A stretch of 64,000 bases of DNA from an uncultured Alphaproteobacteria bacterium (GTDB lineage: Bacteria; Pseudomonadota; Alphaproteobacteria; Rs-D84): NCBI GenBank assembly GCA_947053455.1, contig CAMRSV010000001.1, forward strand, positions 113,010 through 177,009, in the 5' to 3' direction. The notes beneath the pieces were generated by a model. It made no database searches. It had not been told where the DNA came from and saw only the letters and a program-made list of their open reading frames with translations. Position 1 is the first letter of the stretch. Each line of letters opens with the position of its first letter. Made by a program: the position numbers and the translations under genes. Of this stretch, positions 357 through 61,375 are shown in pieces.

Positions 357-2138
357 ATGAACCTGTTTGATTCATCTTTTCTGTGTCTTGACATCGGGAC
401 AAGCGGCGTTCGCGGCATTGCACACCGAATAAAATCGGGTCAGATTGACAAGTCCGCGGTATTTTCAATACAAAGCCCGGACATCGCATTCGCATTGATG
501 TCAGTGGTTGACGAATTGGAACGCCAAATCGGGGTTCATTTTGATTCTGCCTTTGTTACCGGAAATTTTGGAAATGCCGCATTTGACATATCGTTAAAAA
601 GCATACGCTGGTCTGGGGAACATAAAATAACACCCGCCGACATTAAAATGCAGGCTTCACAAATAACACCACCGGACGGTTTTTTCCCCATGCACATAAT
701 ACCGCTGCGATATGATACGCCCGGGGCACGAAACATGGACAGTCCAATTGGCCACACGGATAGACAACTGATGTCTATATTTTCATCAATATCATATGCA
801 CACGCCAGACTGGACAAAATCCAGGCGGCATTGCGCCGCGCGCATATCCAGGCCAACGGATTCTATGACCCGCAATTTTTAATGAACGCCACCATACGTC
901 AAAAAAAGCAGGTTGCAATGTTCATTGATTTTGGCAATGAATTCGTATCTGCATCCATCTGGACGGATCGCGGACCTGTGTGGCTTGAAAAATTTCCAAA
1001 TGGCGGCGGTGAAATCACAACCGCAATTTCAGAAAAAATGCAAATAGACCCGACAGAGGCCACACGCATCAAACACGCCAGCATCAGCATGATACCACGC
1101 GAAATGGATAGGTTCACACCGGCCGATACCGCGTATGAATTTTCACGCGCTGACATTTGCGAAATTGCGGTTCCGCATATCATGAACACAATCGCCGCCA
1201 TACTTGAGGCGGCCAGCAGCGTTCTGGAAAAATACAAACCGTCCCTAATAACAATATGCGGTGGCGGCGCAGAAATCGACGGTATTTCAGACGTAATTGA
1301 AAGCGCCTTTGGAATAAAAGTTGACGTCGCACCGCCGGATGCGGTTGTACGTGCATTGTCAAATTACATATGGAATTGCGAAGAGGCACACCGCCAAGCC
1401 TATTCGGCCAGGCGCGAAAAATTAGCGCGTTATAAAGAAAAAATAACAAAATTATTTCACCGCCGCCGTATCAAAAAACGCACACGTTTCATCCCGATTT
1501 TGCCAAGCACACTGTGCTTTAACATGAAAAGTCCGGTAACATATTCACTGTTTCAGTCGGGCGGAATATCTATGATTCATGTCGATATAATGGATGGCCT
1601 TTATGTTGACCGCATTGCGGGCGGAATTGATGAACTAAAATATATTCGGGCACACACACGTGCACATCTTCATGTCCATTTAATGACCGAAAGCCCGGGT
1701 GTCTGGGCGGCGGACGCGGCGGCGGCGGGCGCGAACACAATAATATTATCGACAAACACATCGGGATTGCGCGCCGCGCTGCGCGCAGTGCGTGCGGGCG
1801 GCCGACGGGCGGGCGTCGCACTTAACCCCGATTCACCTGTTTCATTATTAAAACCGATTTTACGTGATGTGGATGAAATAATGGTGATGACTGTCGCCCC
1901 TGGTGCGGCAGGTCAGGCGTTTCATCCCGAATGCCTACATAAAATATCTGTACTGGCGGCGACACGCAAAAAATATGGATTAAAATTTACAATATCCGTG
2001 GACGGCGGAATAAACGACAAAACGGCGCCCCTATGCTGGGAGGCTGGTGCCGACCTGCTGGTTAGCGGTTCATACCTGGCACGCAGTTCTGATTTTCCAC
2101 TTGCGGTCCAAAGCCTGCTAAAGAAAAGCGGTGATTAA
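357..2138 (+). CDS. FtsA-like actin-fold ATPase (about aa 1-365) fused in-frame to ribulose-phosphate 3-epimerase (about aa 375-593)
   Basis: N-terminal LCLDIGTSGVRG and ITICGGGAEIDGI motifs are typical of FtsA/PilM actin-like ATPases. The C-terminus has the Rpe hallmarks IHVDIMDG, HLHVHLMTESP, MVMTVAPGAAGQAF and ISVDGGIN. It is a single ORF with no stop between the domains. An in-frame ATG at 1524 could also give a stand-alone Rpe of about 204 aa. Confidence 0.6.
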   Translation: MNLFDSSFLCLDIGTSGVRGIAHRIKSGQIDKSAVFSIQSPDIAFALMSVVDELERQIGVHFDSAFVTGNFGNAAFDISLKSIRWSGEHKITPADIKMQASQITPPDGFFPMHIIPLRYDTPGARNMDSPIGHTDRQLMSIFSSISYAHARLDKIQAALRRAHIQANGFYDPQFLMNATIRQKKQVAMFIDFGNEFVSASIWTDRGPVWLEKFPNGGGEITTAISEKMQIDPTEATRIKHASISMIPREMDRFTPADTAYEFSRADICEIAVPHIMNTIAAILEAASSVLEKYKPSLITICGGGAEIDGISDVIESAFGIKVDVAPPDAVVRALSNYIWNCEEAHRQAYSARREKLARYKEKITKLFHRRRIKKRTRFIPILPSTLCFNMKSPVTYSLFQSGGISMIHVDIMDGLYVDRIAGGIDELKYIRAHTRAHLHVHLMTESPGVWAADAAAAGANTIILSTNTSGLRAALRAVRAGGRRAGVALNPDSPVSLLKPILRDVDEIMVMTVAPGAAGQAFHPECLHKISVLAATRKKYGLKFTISVDGGINDKTAPLCWEAGADLLVSGSYLARSSDFPLAVQSLLKKSGD

Positions 2139-2439: not shown

Positions 2440-2638
2440 TTCGACGGCGCATTGCGCGCTGGTTTTTGCGTCGGTGTTTTTTAACGCCGATGGTTCCTGA
2501 CATTTATCCTGGTCAGGAAGCTGCTGTCATACAACAGGGATTACCCGAAAGCAGCAGGGTCATTTCGAATCATGATTTTCTAAACTTCCTGACCGCCGAT
2601 TCCCATGGCGGTTTCTTCGTTAAACCAAGGAAGATATC
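2440..2638 (+). promoter_or_regulatory. Structured 5' leader (attenuator-like) upstream of the Cys-rich secreted protein gene
   Basis: Three elements: TTCCTGAC (2494-2501), GGTCAGGAAG (2511-2520) and CTTCCTGACC (2585-2594). The middle element can pair with either outer one. The third overlaps the left arm of the hairpin CCGCC-gattcccat-GGCGG + TTTCTTCG (2593-2619), 20 nt before the ATG. Confidence 0.5.
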
Positions 2639-3076
2639 ATGAAAAAAACTGTTACATTTTCGTTATTGTTACTAGGCACCATTTCAACAAACGCATTTGC
2701 TATCGTACGGCCCGATTGCAATGATAATACAACATGTTTTGATATAACAAATGGTCAAAGATGTACTACAGTATGCCCGACCTGTGACCAAGTAACACTT
2801 GGATGCCCATGCTGCATCGAATACGATACCACCGTATCCTGTACCTGCAATTCCGGGTATCATTCGGCGACAAATGCCACATATGGATGCGAATGCAAAA
2901 AAAATTGCGCCGCCGGATATTATGGTGATGGCACAACGTGCACAAAATGTCCAACACCCGGCACAACAACCGGATATGCACAAACCATCACAGATTGCTA
3001 TGTACCACAAAACACATCGGTAACAGATTCAAGCGGCACATATAACTATTCTAGCAATTGTAAGTACAATCTATGA
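2639..3076 (+). CDS. Small secreted Cys-rich protein, paralog family member 1
   Basis: Signal peptide MKKTVTFSLLLLGTISTNAFA and about 20 Cys. Shares C.AGYY..G..C..CP and C-terminal Y.Y[ST].NC.Y motifs with 58647-58913. Confidence 0.7.
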   Translation: MKKTVTFSLLLLGTISTNAFAIVRPDCNDNTTCFDITNGQRCTTVCPTCDQVTLGCPCCIEYDTTVSCTCNSGYHSATNATYGCECKKNCAAGYYGDGTTCTKCPTPGTTTGYAQTITDCYVPQNTSVTDSSGTYNYSSNCKYNL

Positions 3077-10592: not shown

Positions 10593-10868
10593 TTATTTCC
10601 CGCGATACGCATCGGCGTCATCGCCCCAATACCACGCGGGGATGCCGTATGTAAATATAAATATTAAAAATACTGTCGGAAATGGGGCACAGCCGGATTC
10701 TATATCCCGCAATTTTTCGACCGTTATACCAATGTCACGCGCAAACTGTTCCAACGATATTTGTGAATTTTCACGTATACTGCGGAAAAGTTCACCCGGC
10801 GGCATCCCGGTATCTTCTAGTGATACCAGTTTTTTTATCCCCGCCATTATATCGGCATTGTTGGTCAT
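10593..10868 (-). CDS. XRE-family helix-turn-helix transcriptional regulator, with a hydrophobic C-terminal tail
   Basis: Cro/C1-type HTH signature ISLEQFARDIGITVEKLRDIESG. Start chosen at MTNNADIM (ATG 10868). Confidence 0.5.
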   Translation of the reverse strand: MTNNADIMAGIKKLVSLEDTGMPPGELFRSIRENSQISLEQFARDIGITVEKLRDIESGCAPFPTVFLIFIFTYGIPAWYWGDDADAYRGK

Positions 10869-10917
10869 GTTTATACCCCCGTTGTGCAAAAACAAAAACC
10901 ACCGAAAAATTTCAAGT

Positions 10918-11060
10918 GGTTGGAGGTTCACGACTATGTAAGAAATAGTGTATGTGTATTCAATATATTTTCACATACCCTCCAACCTAGGATTGGAGAG
11001 ATAGTTTTTTGTCTTATCTAGACATCTTACGCGGAGTCGTGAAACTCCGTGATGGAATTA
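10918..11060. repeat. Structured repeat unit A (long hairpin GGTTGGAGG...CCTCCAACC plus a second hairpin)
   Basis: Near-duplicate of 11122-11245. Second hairpin is GGAGTcgtgaaACTCC. Confidence 0.6.
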
Positions 11061-11121
11061 CCATCAATGATTATTATAGTATATTAGGGAAAAATATCAA
11101 TAAAAAAACCGCTTTATTGCG

Positions 11122-11245
11122 GTTGGAGGTTCACAACTATCGTAAGAAATAGTGTCGTTTATTCATATATATCACGACCCTCCAACCATGGTTGAAGTTT
11201 CTCTTACGAGGGGTTGTGACACCCCACCGATGGAATACCCTTCGG
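11122..11245. repeat. Structured repeat unit B
   Basis: GGTTGGAGGTTCACAACTATCGTAAGAAATAGTGT...CCTCCAACC. The second hairpin GGGGttgtgacaCCCC differs from unit A but keeps pairing. Confidence 0.6.
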
Positions 11246-13836: not shown

Positions 13837-15372
13837 TTATTCCTCGTCTTGAGTAATGTTATAAACCACCTCGCGAGCCTTCATAATTATACGCGCAGCC
13901 AACCGCGGTGACATTGCGTCTTCGCCCAGAATTTCAATCAGTTCATCAGACGCCAAATCCGCCAGGTCTTCCAGGGACTTTATTCCAGCACGCCCCAGCG
14001 CCATAATTGTGGGCCGCTTTATAAAATCAAACTCCAGCAAATCGTCCTTCATCCCCATCGCATGGCCTTCGTCTTTGTAATCCTGCTCGATTTTGGCCAG
14101 ATAATCCTTGGCACGCTTTTGCAGTTCTGATGCCAGTTCCGCATTGAATCCCTCAATCGCGGTAAGTTCTGCCTCATCAACAAATGCGATTTCTTCGATT
14201 GTGCGGAACCCTTCGGTAATCAGCAGGTGCGCAATCATTTCATCAACATCCAATCCCTTTATAAACAGTTCTGTCTTTTCCTTGAATTCATTGGCGCGGC
14301 GTTCCTGTTCGGTCTGTTCGTTCATGACGTCAATGTTCCATCCCGTCAGTTGGGACGCCAATCGCACGTTCTGCCCGCGACGACCGATGGCCAATGATTG
14401 CTGGTCATCATTTACAACAACGGCCGCTGTGCGTGTGTCTTCATCGACGATAATTTTTGCAACTTTGGCCGGCTGCATCGCATTTACAATGAACACCGCC
14501 GGGTCTTCGGAATATAAAATAACGTCGATTTTTTCACCATGACATTCGTTAATAACCGGCTGAATACGTGTACCCTTGATACCGACCGTCATGCCGACTG
14601 CATCAATTGACGGATCCTGGGTTTCAACGGCGATTTTCGCGTGCGAACCCGGTGCACGTGCAACAGATTTGATTTTGATTATGCCCTCGTAAATTTCGGG
14701 TACTTCCTGAACAAACAGTTTTTCCATAAACATAGGATGCGTACGGGTCAGGAAAATCTGCGGACCGGAATTGGAACGCGCAACATCCATAATCAGCGCG
14801 CGCACACGGTCACCCACCGCTAGGCGTTCGCCCGGTATCAATTCAGTGCCCTTGATATACCCTTCGGCCTTGCCGTTAATGTCAACAAATATATTGCCGA
14901 ATTCTACACGCTTTACAACACCGGATACAATATCACCGATATTATCTTTGAATTCTTCGTACTGGCGCCCCTTTTCTGCGTCGCGCACGCGTGCTGTCAT
15001 TATCTGGCGCGCGGTCTGGAACGCCATACGGCCAAATTCTGGTTCCGGCAACGGATCTTCAACAAATTCACCAATAATTGGGTTTTTAGAATACTTTTTA
15101 GCCTGCGCAACCGTCAACATTGTGTTAGCATCATATTCTTCAACAGATTGCGGGGATTCAATAACCTCGAACAAGCGTTTAACATAAATCGCACCGTTTT
15201 TACGGTCAATATGCGCCGTGATATTGAACTCTTCGCCATACTTGTGCTTGGCGATTTTGGCGATTGCCGCCTCTAATGATTCTATAACAATTTCACGGTC
15301 TATCAGTTTTTCCTGGGCCAGGGAATCGATAGCCAGCAGCAAATCCTGACGGGGCATTGAAACAAAAGACAT
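13837..15372 (-). CDS. nusA: Transcription termination/antitermination factor NusA
   Basis: 511 aa with S1 and KH domains. Conserved order nusA-infB. Confidence 0.85.
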   Translation of the reverse strand: MSFVSMPRQDLLLAIDSLAQEKLIDREIVIESLEAAIAKIAKHKYGEEFNITAHIDRKNGAIYVKRLFEVIESPQSVEEYDANTMLTVAQAKKYSKNPIIGEFVEDPLPEPEFGRMAFQTARQIMTARVRDAEKGRQYEEFKDNIGDIVSGVVKRVEFGNIFVDINGKAEGYIKGTELIPGERLAVGDRVRALIMDVARSNSGPQIFLTRTHPMFMEKLFVQEVPEIYEGIIKIKSVARAPGSHAKIAVETQDPSIDAVGMTVGIKGTRIQPVINECHGEKIDVILYSEDPAVFIVNAMQPAKVAKIIVDEDTRTAAVVVNDDQQSLAIGRRGQNVRLASQLTGWNIDVMNEQTEQERRANEFKEKTELFIKGLDVDEMIAHLLITEGFRTIEEIAFVDEAELTAIEGFNAELASELQKRAKDYLAKIEQDYKDEGHAMGMKDDLLEFDFIKRPTIMALGRAGIKSLEDLADLASDELIEILGEDAMSPRLAARIIMKAREVVYNITQDEE

Positions 15373-58617: not shown

Positions 58618-58652
58618 TAAAAAACACCGGCATTTGCCGGTGTTTTTTAATT
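58618..58652. repeat. Palindromic terminator-repeat family, copy 4
   Basis: AAAAAACACCGGCatttGCCGGTGTTTTTTAAT between parB and the Cys-rich gene. Confidence 0.7.
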
Positions 58653-58913
58653 AGAATAATTGCAGTTTGCCGTGTATTGGAAATCACCGGTTGAATCTGA
58701 TTTCTGGGTGCCTGATGGCAGATAGCAGGCGGTCTTGCCGGTTTTATTTCGGTCGGCAGATGTGCCGCCATCCGGACAGGGCAGGCATTGGCCGTTTTCA
58801 AGGTAATATCCCGCCTTGCATGCGGTATAAGATATTGGGTTTGCAACGCAGGCGGCATATGCTATGCCAGGCCCCATGGCAAATAAAACAAAAAATAATG
58901 ATTTTTTTAGCAT
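58647..58913 (-). CDS. Small secreted Cys-rich protein, paralog family member 2
   Basis: Signal peptide ending AYA. CKAGYYLENGQCLPCPDGGTS and DFQYTANCNYSN align with 2639-3076. Confidence 0.65.
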   Translation of the reverse strand: MLKKSLFFVLFAMGPGIAYAACVANPISYTACKAGYYLENGQCLPCPDGGTSADRNKTGKTACYLPSGTQKSDSTGDFQYTANCNYSN

Positions 58914-58934
58914 ATAAACTTCCTTTAGTATATT

Positions 58935-59300
58935 TTAAATTTTGTCCCCAGGATAAAGATAGCTGCATATAAAACATTTATTTATGCCTCCTGGCGTGTG
59001 GTTTGTATAGTAAAAGCATGTTTCTCTTGATGGGGTTGCAGCGCATGTGCCATATGTTTGCGAGTAATATCCCTTATTATCGCTGGTTTCCCGGTCTTTT
59101 ATACGCGTGCAGGTGTTTCCGGTCAATGATAATATCCAGCCAGTTGGGCAAGAGTATGTTGTTTCTGTTTCCAGACTCGGGCAACAATAACCGCTTTCTT
59201 TATTAGCGCAGCATTCTAATTGATCTGGGCATGTTAACGAGGCTTGTGCTGTTGTAATAAATGCAAACGCAAGAATAAAAAACGGTATAAATTTTGTCAT
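58935..59300 (-). CDS. Small secreted Cys-rich protein, divergent family member 3
   Basis: Signal peptide ending AQA. 14 Cys. GYY..x..G.C element. Confidence 0.55.
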   Translation of the reverse strand: MTKFIPFFILAFAFITTAQASLTCPDQLECCANKESGYCCPSLETETTYSCPTGWILSLTGNTCTRIKDRETSDNKGYYSQTYGTCAATPSRETCFYYTNHTPGGINKCFICSYLYPGDKI

Positions 59301-59450
59301 TTTTGGCCTCTTTATTGGTTAAAACAAAACCACCAGGTTTTTTTGGTGGTCAGGAGGCTGAGAACAATTGCACGAATTGCACGATTTATTGGTTATTTAA
59401 TCGCCCTCCTGACCGTGGTCAGGAGTTTGTTTATCGTCGTAATAAAAACG
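59301..59450 (-). promoter_or_regulatory. Structured 5' leader (attenuator-like) of the Cys-rich gene pair
   Basis: GGTCAGGAGG (59348-57), CCTCCTGACC (59405-14) and GGTCAGGAG (59417-25) give alternative pairings. On the mRNA a CCACCA-n8-TGGTGG hairpin plus U-run lies directly adjacent. Architecture is the same as 2440-2638. Confidence 0.5.
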
Positions 59451-59599
59451 GCATGATACGCCACAAATATATTCCGACGTGTGCAATAGGGATTCTCAGG
59501 CCCTGCCGCGGTAACCCACCGCGATATAAAGATTATATGAATTTTCATGAATTGTGTAAAGTCAAAAAGGCCATATTGATAAATATTGCATTACAAACA

Positions 59600-60560
59600 A
59601 AAGCTTTGTCAATTTTATTTTAGTAAAATGTATAAAAATACCGGTTTTCTGCGGTTTTTAGAAATTTCTTGAATCGTTTCAAAGGATTTTTGCGGGTACA
59701 TATTGCCGTGTTTGTCGGCGCAAAAACAGCCATATTTCAGGTGTTTTTTTGCCATATTATAGTGTGCTTTTGTGGGGTATAAATCTTGCTATATGATAAG
59801 CGGATTTATCTAAAATGTATATGGCGTTATTGCATGACTGTGTGGTGGCGTTTTTTTTATCAAATGGTTGTGTCATGATGGCTTTTTATTAGTAATTCTT
59901 TATAAAACATATGTTTTTTAAGGCCTAATGTACGGTTAAAATACAATTTTTTGCGTATGATTTTGTTATAAAATTGTCGGCAAATACCGGTATTTTAATT
60001 TATAAAATATCTATATCGATAGATATATGCAAAATGTGAGTGTATTTTGTTAATTTTTAATAAAATGCCGATTTGAAAAAGCCGTTTTTCTTGTGCGGTT
60101 CATGATTGGATGCTAAAAAAATATAAAATAATATTAAAAAAAGCATGCTTGTTGATGATGAAATTTCCGTAAATATTACCGCATTTCTTAAACATTTGCC
60201 AAATAATATATGTACCAATAATCGTGTTGTCAATAAAAAAGACCTTTTTGTTATTTCATTGTATTTTTTAGTCTAAATAAGTATAATGATTCTATGATTT
60301 TTTTCAGGTTTTCTGCGGCTTGTAGGGATTTATTGCAAAGTTATAGTGATGTAGGGTAAAGATAATACCGGTACATATTGCCGTGTTTGTCAACCTGTTT
60401 TTTGTGGTTTTTAGGGAAAAAGTTGTATTACTTATTTGTTGTCTTGAATTTATTGTCAATATTGTTAAATAGATTGCGTATTTTATATGGTTATGTGTGG
60501 TTTTTAGGACTGTGTTGGGTATTTATTTATCTTTAATATGTCATCAATGGGGATTGGCAT
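59600..60560. repeat. Repeat-rich AT-rich non-coding tract with degenerate direct repeats
   Basis: Exact 21-bp repeat GTACATATTGCCGTGTTTGTC at 59699 and 60374. Recurring TTTTCTGCGG, GTGGTTTTTAGG and TACCGGTA motifs. No ORF with coding character. Confidence 0.5.
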
Positions 60561-60918
60561 ATATGTTTTTTTAATAATGGCATCCATAATGCTTGGTCAT
60601 GGGCGGATGGTTTGTTTTACATCAAGGCATTTGATTTTAATTAGGGGCACGGGGATTTTTCATCTGATGCCCCCAGTTGCGGGCAGATTACAGTATTTTA
60701 ATACCTTTATCTGCATTTTTGGTCTGTTTTAGTATTTTATTTACCTATAATATATCGCCACAGCCGGGTGATTTTCATATTTTATGTCATTATGTGCGTT
60801 TTTTTTTTGTCTGTGGTGATATGCTTATCTGCTTGATTTCATAAAGTGCCGGTATTTTTAATGGCAAATGGTCAATATAGTTAAAATTTGATGATGATAT
60901 ATGAATATTTATAAAAAA

Positions 60919-60950
60919 AGCGCGGACAATTGTCCGCGCTTAAACAACGT
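60919..60950 (-). terminator. Terminator downstream of pal
   Basis: Perfect palindrome AGCGCGGACAATTGTCCGCGCT with an A/T run. Confidence 0.6.
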
Positions 60951-60958
60951 AACTGTTA

Positions 60959-61375
60959 TTATTTAACAGTTGTTGTGGCGTTACGATTCCATTTCCAGAC
61001 ATTTTCGCCAGTACCTTTAACCAACGGGCGTTCTTTGCCATAAGAAATTGTGGAAATACGGTTTGCCTCAACACCATCTTTTACCAAAACAGTCTTGGCT
61101 GCGTTCGCACGACGTGCGCCCAACGCCAAGTTGTATTCGCTTGAACCGCGTTCGTCGCAGTTACCAGCGATTTGAATCTTGGTATCTGCATGGTTTTTCA
61201 TATACAGAGCCTGACCCAGCAGGTTATCGCGCGCTTCGTCAGAAATTTCATACGAATTGAACGCAAAGAATACACGCTGGTCATTCAGGTCCGCCGGTTC
61301 AACGATATTAGAGCCACCACAAGCAGCCAAAATGCCCGCTGCGCCAGCCAACAAAGCAAAGTTTTTAATTTTCAT
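60959..61375 (-). CDS. pal: Peptidoglycan-associated lipoprotein (OmpA-family)
   Basis: Lipobox LAACGG. OmpA-like NLALGARRANAAKTVL. Confidence 0.85.
   Translation of the reverse strand: MKIKNFALLAGAAGILAACGGSNIVEPADLNDQRVFFAFNSYEISDEARDNLLGQALYMKNHADTKIQIAGNCDERGSSEYNLALGARRANAAKTVLVKDGVEANRISTISYGKERPLVKGTGENVWKWNRNATTTVK

What the first reader, a model, noticed from the sequence alone, without database searches (positions are those of the whole stretch)
58647..59300. Paralogous family of small Cys-rich secreted proteins (three members, one distant at 2639-3076)
Proteins at 2639-3076, 58647-58913 and 58935-59300 all carry signal peptides and 8-14 % Cys. The first two align closely:
- C.AGYY..G..C..CP.G.T
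- [DA]CY[VL]P...S..[DS]..[GT]...Y..[SA]NC.Y

The third keeps GYY..x..G.C. I know of no family with this signature. The genes sit at two separate loci with the same leader architecture, which suggests a regulated set of surface or secreted factors, possibly effectors or adhesins of an intracellular bacterium.
Basis: seen in the sequence. Interest (0 to 1): 0.7.

Follow-up and report, generated by a model that had tools for sequence, protein, structure and literature searches.

The report
Secreted cysteine-rich proteins behind RNA switches
Two of the three small cysteine-rich secreted proteins belong to a large, unnamed protein family of uncultured gut Alphaproteobacteria, and both loci sit behind the same structured leader RNA (the sRNA-Xcc1 class), which looks like a transcription on/off switch rather than the free-standing small RNA it is catalogued as.

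Summary
All three ORFs are real, exported and under purifying selection: A 2639-3076 (+), B 58647-58913 (-), C 58935-59300 (-).

**Proteins**
- A and B are homologous (BLASTP E=1e-11).
- They belong to a family of at least 409 cluster representatives. Every member that carries a source name is a "hypothetical protein", nearly all from Alphaproteobacteria MAGs.
- The family is defined by a ~56-residue domain at the extreme C-terminus: C..GYY..C..CP..GTS...CY.P.GT..D.TG.Y.Y..C.Y plus 2 residues.
- This domain is a divergent ephrin-receptor-like / TNFR-like cysteine-rich module with a family-specific cap.
- C is not demonstrably homologous (hhalign probability 8%). It is a conserved operon partner of B.

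**Leader RNA**
- Both loci carry a three-way-junction leader. An upstream hairpin (P0) competes with the closing stem P1, and P1 overlaps an intrinsic terminator 11-20 nt before the start codon.
- Relatives of the leader pass Rfam's threshold for sRNA-Xcc1 (RF02221). The window copy scores 38 bits against a threshold of 53.
- In 29 aligned copies, 23 of 29 pairs show compensatory changes.
- Most of the 31 copies I examined (the 29 plus two near-duplicates) precede genes for signal-peptide, mostly Cys-rich proteins.

The signal sensed and the proteins' function remain unknown.

The parts
2639..3076 (+). Gene A. 145 aa: signal peptide (1-21), a variable Cys-rich N-terminal part, and the family C-terminal domain (residues 90-145).
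   Evidence: ORF. Family HMM 73.4 bits. Orthologues at 96% and 45% identity. AF2 pLDDT 88.3.
2480..2627 (+). Leader RNA of A, sRNA-Xcc1 class.
- P0 5' arm: 2494-2501
- P1 5' arm: 2511-2520
- P2 (with the AUACAACAGGG..CCC internal loop): 2521-2557
- P3: 2558-2577
- P1 3' arm: 2585-2594
- Terminator stem: 2591-2613, followed by a U-run
   Evidence: CM R1 116.3 bits. Rfam RF02221 38 bits, E=1.9e-5, full-length match. Terminator scan. Folding.
58935..59300 (-). Gene C. 121 aa, signal peptide, 11 Cys. First gene of the C-B operon. Not demonstrably related to A or B.
   Evidence: C-type gene followed by a B-type gene also in L006, L013 and L014.
58647..58913 (-). Gene B. 88 aa: signal peptide plus little more than the family C-terminal domain.
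59315..59439 (-). Leader RNA of the C-B operon. Same design as the A leader, with a simplified P2.
- P0 hairpin: 59425-59406
- P1 3' arm: 59357-59348
- Terminator: 59351-59328
   Evidence: CM R1 40.9 bits, E=1e-9. Hairpin and terminator scans. No Rfam hit.
59532..59560 (-). Sigma-70-like promoter of the C-B operon (TTTACA-17-TATAAT, 11 of 12). It places P0 about 100 nt inside the transcript.
   Evidence: This is a consensus match only.
58618..58649 (-). Intrinsic terminator ending the C-B operon.
   Evidence: 14-pair stem followed by a T-run.
10884..11213 (-). Two tandem variant copies of the same leader design (11213-11094 and 11012-10884). The second lies 15 nt before a 91-aa HTH-like ORF (10593-10868).
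   Evidence: CM R1 23.2 and 25.1 bits, E=1e-4 to 4e-5. Sequence. Downstream ORF.

Best explanation
**Proteins (shown).** A and B are two members of a large, unannotated family of Sec-exported, disulfide-rich proteins. So far the family is seen almost only in uncultured gut Alphaproteobacteria. That the window organism belongs with the Rs-D84 / Ca. Enterousia group is an inference. The family is defined by a ~56-residue domain that always ends the protein. It consists of a divergent ephrin-receptor-like / TNFR-like cysteine-rich module plus a family-specific cap: CY.P.GT..D.TG.Y.Y..C.Y-xx-COOH. The N-terminal parts are variable and Cys-rich. C belongs to a different Cys-rich secreted family and is co-transcribed with B in several genera.

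**Regulation (anatomy shown, mechanism inferred).** Both loci are controlled in cis by a leader RNA of the sRNA-Xcc1 class.
1. A small hairpin, P0, forms first and holds the 5' arm of P1.
2. When the three-way junction (P1/P2/P3) is stabilised by a signal that is still unknown, P1 forms instead.
3. P1 then takes up the first three bases of the terminator's 5' arm, so transcription reads through into the gene.
4. Otherwise P0 plus the terminator form and transcription stops 11-20 nt before the start codon.

**Function (inferred, weakest step).** The exported domains are probably binding modules displayed on or released from the cell, used for contact with a partner or host.
For: **Protein family**
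- A versus B: E=1e-11.
- Exhaustive profile search: 409 representatives at E<=1e-3 and 26 at E<=1e-10, mostly 80-300 aa.
A hydrophobic N-terminal run is present in 139 of all 173 proteins fetched.
- Named members are 'hypothetical protein', nearly all from Alphaproteobacteria MAGs.
- PF07699 is hit by 17 of 60 domains, with a best E of 3.3e-6. The full-length multi-repeat relatives P0037 and P0118 pass its cut-off: 34-38 bits against 23.1.
- AF2 models have pLDDT 88-89.

**RNA**
- Rfam RF02221 gives full-length matches at 38 bits (window), 31.7 (L005) and 39.4 (L013). L015 (56.4) and L017 (54.2) are above the gathering score of 53.
- A core-pattern scan of 185,579 species genomes gave 18 loci. 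16 were genuine, against about 2 expected by chance, and all 16 are leaders in front of ORFs.
- Covariation: 97.3% of cells paired and 14 pairs with double changes in 17 sequences. In 29 sequences, 95.9% paired and 23 of 29 pairs with double changes. No shuffle out of 500 reached either value, and slid controls pair at 32-58%.
- P0: 15 of 17 leaders have a perfect complement of at least 6 nt to the P1 5' arm, 3-13 nt upstream (shuffled mean 0.25). It covaries three ways with both P1 arms.
- The MFE fold is usually P0 plus terminator. The P1 state is within 0-6 kcal/mol.
- In 29 of the 31 copies examined the start codon is 11-23 nt after the model's end. 17 of the downstream ORFs carry the family domain at E<1e-4. 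Most of the rest are other signal-peptide proteins.
Against: - No experiment. Ligand, termination and export are all inferred.
- The window proteins themselves do not reach any Pfam cut-off.
- The C leader and the 10.9-11.2 kb copies lack the AUACAA/GGG-CCC internal loop of P2. If that loop is the sensor, these copies cannot sense the same signal.
- Not every leader precedes a secreted protein. Two precede small HTH proteins, one precedes a non-secreted protein 87 nt away, and one has no ORF.
- P2b and P3 are invariant in the 17-sequence set because the search pattern fixed them. The 29-sequence alignment was fitted to the model.
- The literature treats sRNA-Xcc1 as a trans-acting sRNA (PMC2996969; PMC12189769).
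Confidence: 0.7

Rival explanations
1. The RNA is what the literature says it is: an independent, trans-acting ~90-nt sRNA gene with its own terminator. It merely lies upstream of these genes, which have their own expression signals.
For: - sRNA-Xcc1 was detected as a discrete ~100-nt band in Xanthomonas (PMC2996969).
- Xylella homologues were detected as transcripts in cells, and four of the five island copies also in vesicles (PMC12189769).
- Each leader here ends in a terminator.
- One window copy (11094-11213) has no ORF behind it.
Against: - Only 11-23 nt, containing just the RBS, separate the U-run from the start codon in 29 of 31 copies, so there is no room for a promoter.
- Orientation always matches the downstream gene.
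- The conserved, covarying P0 competitor of P1, and the overlap of P1 with the terminator, have no role in a simple sRNA.
- A prematurely terminated leader would also appear as a ~100-nt band.
- Elsewhere the element also sits directly upstream of genes: symE and ORF6N.
Confidence: 0.12
2. The proteins are secreted antimicrobial or toxin-like peptides (a bacteriocin-like arsenal) rather than binding or adhesion modules.
For: - They are small, exported and disulfide-rich.
- Several loci occur per genome, with variable N-terminal parts on a constant C-terminal domain.
- The same RNA class precedes a toxin gene (symE) in integron cassettes.
Against: - No immunity, processing or export genes are adjacent. 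The neighbours are housekeeping genes: ftsA/tsaE/uvrB, parAB, dnaJ.
- The nearest folds and Pfam hits are receptor-type binding repeats.
- B is under strong purifying selection, dN/dS 0.11.
Confidence: 0.15
3. One reading: A, B and C form one three-member paralogous family of effectors or adhesins of an intracellular bacterium.
For: - All three are Cys-rich and carry signal peptides.
- C and B are in one operon, and A and C share the leader.
- C has short motif-level echoes of the family: CPTGW..G.TC and SD.KGYY..TYGTC.
- In L024 a C-type and a B-type gene are joined at a shared GSDSTG.
Against: - C against A or B and against the family profile is not significant.
- Relatives come from gut-lumen MAGs, with no sign of an intracellular habit.
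Confidence: 0.1
4. Attenuation is driven by translation of a leader peptide, as in trp-type attenuators, rather than by the RNA junction.
For: - The three-hairpin logic (1:2, 2:3, 3:4) is that of classical attenuators.
- ORFs of 49-79 aa overlap some leaders, and gene callers called some of them.
Against: - Across 17 leaders no frame has a conserved start or stop, and loop indels break the frame.
- Substitutions come as compensatory pairs.
Confidence: 0.03

Closest known systems
Pfam PF07699 Ephrin_rec_like (GCC2/GCC3-type cysteine-rich repeat) and the TNFR-superfamily cysteine-rich domains
   Same: - The first ~35 residues (C..GYY..G..C..CP.G.TS......C) follow the repeat's cysteine and G-Y / C-P spacing.
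- 17 of 60 family domains hit PF07699 at E<=0.01. Full-length multi-repeat relatives pass its cut-off.
- The nearest solved folds are TNFR CRDs, the EphA2 CRD and Elapor1.
   Different: - This family is bacterial, whereas the known examples are eukaryotic surface receptors.
- It is always C-terminal and ends in a conserved 25-residue cap (CY.P.GT..D.TG.Y.Y..C.Y-xx) that the Pfam model lacks.
- A and B themselves score below every cut-off.
Rfam RF02221 sRNA-Xcc1 (Xanthomonas campestris integron-encoded sRNA)
   Same: - Same three-way junction, and similar P1 sequence (GGnCGGGG / CCCCGnCC).
- Same AUACAA-hairpin-GAA internal loop in P2, and a U-run after P1.
- Full-length model matches, two of them above the gathering score.
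- It also lies directly upstream of genes in integrons and in the APSE phage.
   Different: - It is catalogued and discussed as a trans-acting sRNA. I found no paper that calls it cis-regulatory or a riboswitch.
- Here it sits in chromosomal 5' UTRs of a reduced-genome gut lineage, with an added upstream competitor hairpin (P0) and a regulon of secreted Cys-rich proteins.
- The window copies score 38 bits, or not at all.
Terminator-type riboswitches and classical three-hairpin attenuators
   Same: - Mutually exclusive anti-antiterminator (P0), antiterminator (P1) and terminator.
- P1 closes a conserved, covarying junction, as in many ON-riboswitches.
- The two states are nearly isoenergetic.
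   Different: - No ligand is known.
- There is no leader peptide.
- The controlled genes give no metabolic hint.
- Some copies have a stripped-down P2.

Membership tests
Pfam PF07699 Ephrin_rec_like | Whole-protein score at or above the curated cut-off (23.1 bits). | tested here: not met
   A has no hit. B has only Furin-like_2 at E=0.017. B's domain alone has 0 families.
Pfam PF07699 Ephrin_rec_like | Relatives linked to A and B by a significant profile match belong to the family. | tested here: met
   P0037 scores 34.2 bits and P0118 38 bits. 17 of 60 C-terminal domains hit at E<=0.01. Precomputed PF07699 on P0070, P0204, P0213 and P0229.
TNFR-superfamily cysteine-rich domain (fold level) | Significant structural superposition on solved CRDs. 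| tested here: inconclusive
TNFR-superfamily cysteine-rich domain (fold level) | Canonical disulfide connectivity of the A/B modules. | not testable with these tools
   Model coordinates cannot be inspected. The domain has 5 invariant Cys, and in B a sixth Cys lies upstream of it (sequence).
Rfam RF02221 sRNA-Xcc1 | Bit score at or above the gathering score (53). | tested here: not met
   Window A leader 38 bits. C leader no hit. Close relatives of the A leader score 56.4 and 54.2 bits, so the class is the same but the window copies are divergent.
Rfam RF02221 sRNA-Xcc1 | P1/P2/P3 three-way junction with the AUACAA...GAA internal loop in P2. | tested here: met
   Met for the A leader: full-length alignment to model positions 1-87 and covariation. 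The C leader keeps P1, P3 and the terminator but has a plain P2.
Rfam RF02221 sRNA-Xcc1 | Acts in trans as a free ~90-nt sRNA. | not testable with these tools
   No expression data. The anatomy argues for action in cis.
Riboswitch (terminator type) | Conserved structured domain supported by covariation. | tested here: met
Riboswitch (terminator type) | Expression platform whose terminator is mutually exclusive with the domain's closing stem. | tested here: met
   P1's 3' arm and the terminator's 5' arm share 3 nt. P0 competes for P1's 5' arm. Alternative states lie within 0-6 kcal/mol. In silico only.
Riboswitch (terminator type) | Direct binding of a small-molecule ligand. | not testable with these tools
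   No ligand can be inferred from the gene set.
Sec-dependent secreted protein | N-terminal signal peptide with an AXA-type cleavage site. | tested here: met
   Read from the sequences: NAFA|IV, AYA|AC, AQA|SL. No SignalP was available.

The most novel reading that the evidence does not exclude
The sRNA-Xcc1 class, catalogued as a trans-acting sRNA of mobile elements, is in fact an orphan cis-acting switch: a riboswitch or a factor-dependent attenuator. In the reduced-genome, partner-dependent gut Alphaproteobacteria it has been recruited to control a whole secretome of TNFR / ephrin-receptor-like cysteine-rich proteins, the organism's interface with its partner or host, in response to one shared, still unknown signal.
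Probability: 0.4. Interest if true: 0.8.

Novelty: new variant of a known kind. Interest (0 to 1): 0.68.

Why it matters
**Protein side.** Bacteria of the Rs-D84 / Enterousia type have genomes under about 1 Mb, lack most biosynthesis, and are thought to live off other cells (PMC12306168). Yet relatives keep several genes for exported disulfide-rich proteins built from a receptor-type repeat otherwise typical of eukaryotic surface receptors. These proteins are obvious candidates for the contact or recognition machinery of an uncultured lineage. They are invisible to current annotation.

**RNA side.** A catalogued 'sRNA' family turns out to have the full anatomy of a terminator-type switch, with strong covariation and a coherent set of downstream genes. 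That gives a concrete, testable orphan-switch candidate. It also suggests re-reading sRNA-Xcc1 copies in integrons, phages and plant pathogens as leaders of the genes behind them.

Tried and rejected
- **Word-indexed homologue searches.** A and C gave only 2-3 close hits. The family appeared only with the exhaustive profile search.
- **The search for related loci.** I used the genome scan for the RNA core pattern instead.
- **NCBIfam.** Nothing.
- **PDB by sequence profile.** Nothing.
- **AFDB fold library.** Not available.
- **Rfam at gathering threshold on the window.** Only a tRNA. The leader showed up only in E-value mode on the short region.
- **C as a remote family member.** Tested by BLASTP and hhalign and rejected as unproven.
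- **Leader-peptide attenuation.** Rejected: no conserved ORF.
- **MITE or repeat origin of the leaders.** Rejected, because orientation and the 11-23 nt distance to the start codon hold in all but two copies.
- **Degenerate family pseudogenes in the AT-rich 59.3-60.96 kb gap.** None found.
- **Chance or spurious ORFs.** Rejected by dN/dS and by orthologues.
- **Name of the window's own species.** Not obtained. Its closest NCBI record is GCA_964017585.1, and the pattern scan did not return it.
Full report
**1. What is at the coordinates**

Three ORFs exist as described.
- A: 2639-3076 (+), 145 aa.
- B: 58647-58913 (-), 88 aa.
- C: 58935-59300 (-), 121 aa.

C and B are 21 nt apart on the minus strand. 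B has its own AAGGAAG ribosome-binding site, and a strong terminator follows it (58649-58618). They form one operon.

Each protein opens with a Sec-type signal peptide: MKKTVTFSLLLLGTISTNAFA|IV, MLKKSLFFVLFAMGPGIAYA|AC and MTKFIPFFILAFAFITTAQA|SL. This is read from the sequence.

Cysteine content is 11.7% (A), 6.8% (B) and 9.1% (C).

A scan of all ORFs of at least 40 aa found no other Cys-rich signal-peptide ORF. A family HMM run on all ORFs and all stop-to-stop segments found the domain only in A and B.

All three proteins recur in other assemblies. Compared with orthologous loci, dN/dS is 0.11 for B, 0.41 for C and 0.11-0.29 for A, against 0.057 for the neighbouring parB. These are real genes under purifying selection.

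**2. Are they paralogues?**

A and B are. BLASTP gives E=1e-11 and 41% identity over the last 56 residues.

C is not demonstrably related. BLASTP E is 0.13 and 0.63. A five-sequence C-type profile against the family domain profile gives hhalign probability 8% over 15 columns.

C keeps short echoes of the family (CPTGW...G.TC; SD.KGYY..TYGTC). In a Ca. Enterousia contig, a C-type and a B-type gene appear fused at a shared GSDSTG (L024). That is a lead, not proof.

What is solid is the operon. A C-type gene followed by a B-type gene behind one leader recurs in L006, L013 and L014.

**3. The protein family**

The word-indexed search found only two relatives of A. The exhaustive profile search found 409 cluster representatives at E<=1e-3 and 26 at E<=1e-10.

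Apart from a few eukaryotic multi-repeat receptors that match only the first half, the hits are bacterial proteins of 80-300 aa. They have signal peptides, variable Cys-rich N-terminal parts and one constant C-terminal domain: C..GYY..G..C..CP..GTS..G..IT.CY[IL]P.GT..sDsTG.Y.Yt.nC.Y.

Every member that carries a source name is 'hypothetical protein', nearly all from Alphaproteobacteria MAGs. NCBIfam has nothing.

Pfam gives no hit above cut-off for A, B or C. But 17 of 60 isolated family domains hit PF07699 Ephrin_rec_like at E<=0.01, 4 hit TNFR_ELAPOR1_6th, and the full-length multi-repeat relatives P0037 and P0118 pass the PF07699 cut-off.

AlphaFold2 with family alignments gives confident all-beta models: A at pLDDT 88.3 and B at 89.2.

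I therefore read the domain as a divergent ephrin-receptor-like / TNFR-like cysteine-rich module with a family-specific C-terminal cap. It is a new bacterial variant of a known repeat, not a member by Pfam's own criterion.

**4. The shared leader**

This is the strongest part of the finding.

*In the window.* Upstream of A and of C there is a hairpin, [T/C]TCCTGAC-loop-GTCAGGA[A/G]. A second copy of the 5' arm lies 50-70 nt further on and runs into a terminator hairpin plus U-run just before the RBS. The hairpin pattern occurs twice in 64 kb, with none expected.

*Link to a known class.* The A leader aligns over the full length of Rfam RF02221 (sRNA-Xcc1) at 38 bits, E=1.9e-5. The same holds for the leader of the 45%-identical A orthologue in another species (31.7 bits) and for the leader of a C-B operon in Ca. 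Enterousia (39.4 bits). Two further relatives pass Rfam's gathering score of 53, at 56.4 and 54.2 bits. The class is sRNA-Xcc1, and the window copies are divergent members.

*Wider distribution.* A scan of one genome per GTDB species with the leader core pattern returned 18 loci, against about 2 expected by chance. Two were chance hits in coding DNA. The other 16 were leaders in MAGs from roe-deer caecum, chicken (Ca. Enterousia intestinigallinarum), mouse gut, termite gut and similar sources.

*Structure and covariation.* The structure is a three-way junction. P1 closes it. P2 carries the AUACAACAGGG-loop-CCC-AAA internal loop. P3 completes it.
- In 17 leaders, 97.3% of cells pair. All 7 pairs of P2 and 7 of the 10 pairs of P1 show compensatory double changes. 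No shuffle out of 500 reaches this, and slid controls pair at 38-51%.
- P2b and P3 could not vary in that set, because my search pattern fixed them.
- In the 29-sequence alignment made with covariance model R1, P3 (4 of 6 pairs) and the terminator (3 of 3) also covary. This alignment is fitted to the model, so it leans towards the structure.

*Copies in the window.* Model R1, run with filters off, finds four copies:

| Copy | Bits | E-value |
|---|---|---|
| A leader | 116 | 2e-31 |
| C leader | 40.9 | 1e-9 |
| 10884-11012 (-) | 25.1 | 3.8e-5 |
| 11094-11213 (-) | 23.2 | 1.3e-4 |

The last two are tandem variants.

**5. How the leader probably works**

Three facts define the design.
- The 5' arm of P1 can pair either with the 3' arm (P1, 10 bp) or with an upstream copy of it (P0). 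15 of 17 leaders have a perfect upstream complement of at least 6 nt, 3-13 nt away (shuffled mean 0.25). The three segments covary together: TTCCTGAC / GTCAGGAA / TTCCTGAC in the window, ATCCCGAC / GTCGGGAT / ATCCCGGC in L005, and TCCCCGC / GCGGGGA / TCCCCGC in L020.
- The 3' arm of P1 shares its last three bases with the 5' arm of the terminator.
- In most leaders the minimum-energy fold is P0 + P2 + P3 + terminator. A fold with P1 enforced is within 0-6 kcal/mol.

This is the 1:2 / 2:3 / 3:4 logic of an attenuator, with a conserved junction inside the 2:3 loop. My inference is that the default state terminates, and that whatever stabilises the junction and P1 gives read-through.

There is no conserved leader ORF, so a leader-peptide mechanism is unlikely.

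For the C-B operon, an 11/12 sigma-70-like promoter at 59560-59532 puts P0 about 100 nt inside the transcript.

The signal is unknown. The C leader and the 10.9-11.2 kb copies have a plain P2 without the AUACAA loop. So either that loop is not the sensor, or these copies answer to something else.

**6. What the leaders control**

I examined 31 copies: the 29 aligned ones plus L024 and L026, which are near-duplicates of L013 and L018. In 29 of them a start codon lies 11-23 nt after the model's end.
- 17 of the downstream ORFs carry the family C-terminal domain (E<1e-4).
- Most of the others are different signal-peptide proteins, largely Cys-rich. They include C-type proteins and several larger Cys-rich proteins, two of them truncated. 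One has trypsin-like motifs by inspection.
- Two are small HTH-like proteins.
- One is a non-secreted protein 87 nt away.
- One copy has no ORF.

The element is thus mainly the leader of an exported, disulfide-rich protein set.

Published work places sRNA-Xcc1 upstream of symE in Xanthomonas integron cassettes (bioRxiv 10.1101/2025.06.18.660453). It also lies upstream of an ORF6N gene in APSE phages (10.1101/2020.03.17.996009). In Xylella it occurs as five copies about 385 nt apart in a genomic island (PMC12189769).

It is always interpreted as a trans-acting sRNA, as in its first description (PMC2996969). I found no paper calling it cis-regulatory. A prematurely terminated leader would give the same ~100-nt band.

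**7. Organism and lifestyle**

The window's closest public record is GCA_964017585.1. Its name was not retrievable.

Relatives of both the proteins and the leaders are uncultured gut Alphaproteobacteria, including Ca. Enterousia.

That genus belongs to the order Rs-D84, described as having genomes under about 1 Mb, lacking most biosynthetic pathways, and probably depending on a partner (PMC12306168). Assigning the window to that group is an inference. Nothing indicates an intracellular habit.

**8. Function of the proteins**

This is inferred. The evidence is export, disulfide-rich receptor-type repeats, several loci per genome (three leader loci in one MAG), variable N-terminal parts on a constant C-terminal domain, a conserved two-gene C-B unit, and a common switch. 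All fit a set of surface or released binding modules used for contact with a partner or host.

A toxin or bacteriocin role is the main rival. No immunity or processing genes are adjacent: the neighbours are ftsA/tsaE/uvrB, parAB and dnaJ.

**9. Verdict**

- The protein family is real, large and unannotated, and is a new bacterial variant of the ephrin-receptor / TNFR-like cysteine-rich repeat.
- The leader belongs to a known Rfam class, but here it shows the complete anatomy of a terminator-type switch and a coherent regulon. I did not find that reading in the literature.

Interest is 0.68. What keeps it from being higher is the absence of any expression or binding data and the weak absolute fold scores.

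Noticed in passing
window 10884-11213 (-), ORF 10593-10868 (-): Two tandem variant copies of the leader, with P0/P1 = CTCCAACC / GGTTGGAGG, a plain P2 and their own terminators. The first has no ORF behind it. The second lies 15 nt before a 91-aa HTH-like protein with a hydrophobic tail. L027 1749-1870 also has a leader followed by a small HTH-like gene.
   Followed up: partly
window 59560-60950: About 1.4 kb without ORFs between the ompA-like gene and the C-B promoter. GC is 32% over 59301-60960 (which also includes the C leader), against about 45% for the window. The same gap is present in related strains (L001, L006). It contains no family remnants and no significant RNA-family hit.
   Followed up: partly
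window 357-2138 (+): The orthologue of this 593-aa ORF carries both FtsA and ribulose-phosphate 3-epimerase Pfam hits on one product (L007). This looks like an FtsA-Rpe fusion.
   Followed up: no
L024 4365-4652 (-) versus L013 404-1040: In Ca. Enterousia intestinigallinarum, a single 95-aa ORF joins the N-terminal half of a C-type protein to the C-terminal end of a B-type protein at a shared GSDSTG. A near-identical contig (L013) has the two genes separate. This is either recombination between the two genes or an assembly artefact.
   Followed up: partly
window 2445-2477 (+) and 59464-59448 (-); also L008, L010, L013-L029: Immediately upstream of P0, most leaders by inspection have another GC hairpin followed by a U-run. 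Further upstream lie two more hairpins (for example 59520-59475 in the window). The 5' UTR is therefore about 220 nt and more structured than the modelled part.
   Followed up: no
window 2613-2636 (+): In the MFE fold of the A leader, the CUUCG after the terminator pairs with the GGAAG of the ribosome-binding site. In several relatives the U-run can pair with a following A-rich stretch. This may be a second, translational layer of control.
   Followed up: no
L028 5569-5874 (-), L026 7464-7742 (-), L024 13-195 (+): A further small secreted subfamily (CPSGY ... C[YM]MFAP.GV.Y.D..G...F...C..E). It keeps only the C-terminal cap of the family domain.
   Followed up: no
L019 6709-6836 (-): A variant leader (38 bits) precedes a 543-aa signal-peptide protein with trypsin-like motifs (TARHC, GNSGG) by inspection, not a Cys-rich family member.
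   Followed up: no
window 14746-14753 (-): A sixth TCCTGACC octamer in the window, inside a long ORF. It is probably chance.
   Followed up: no
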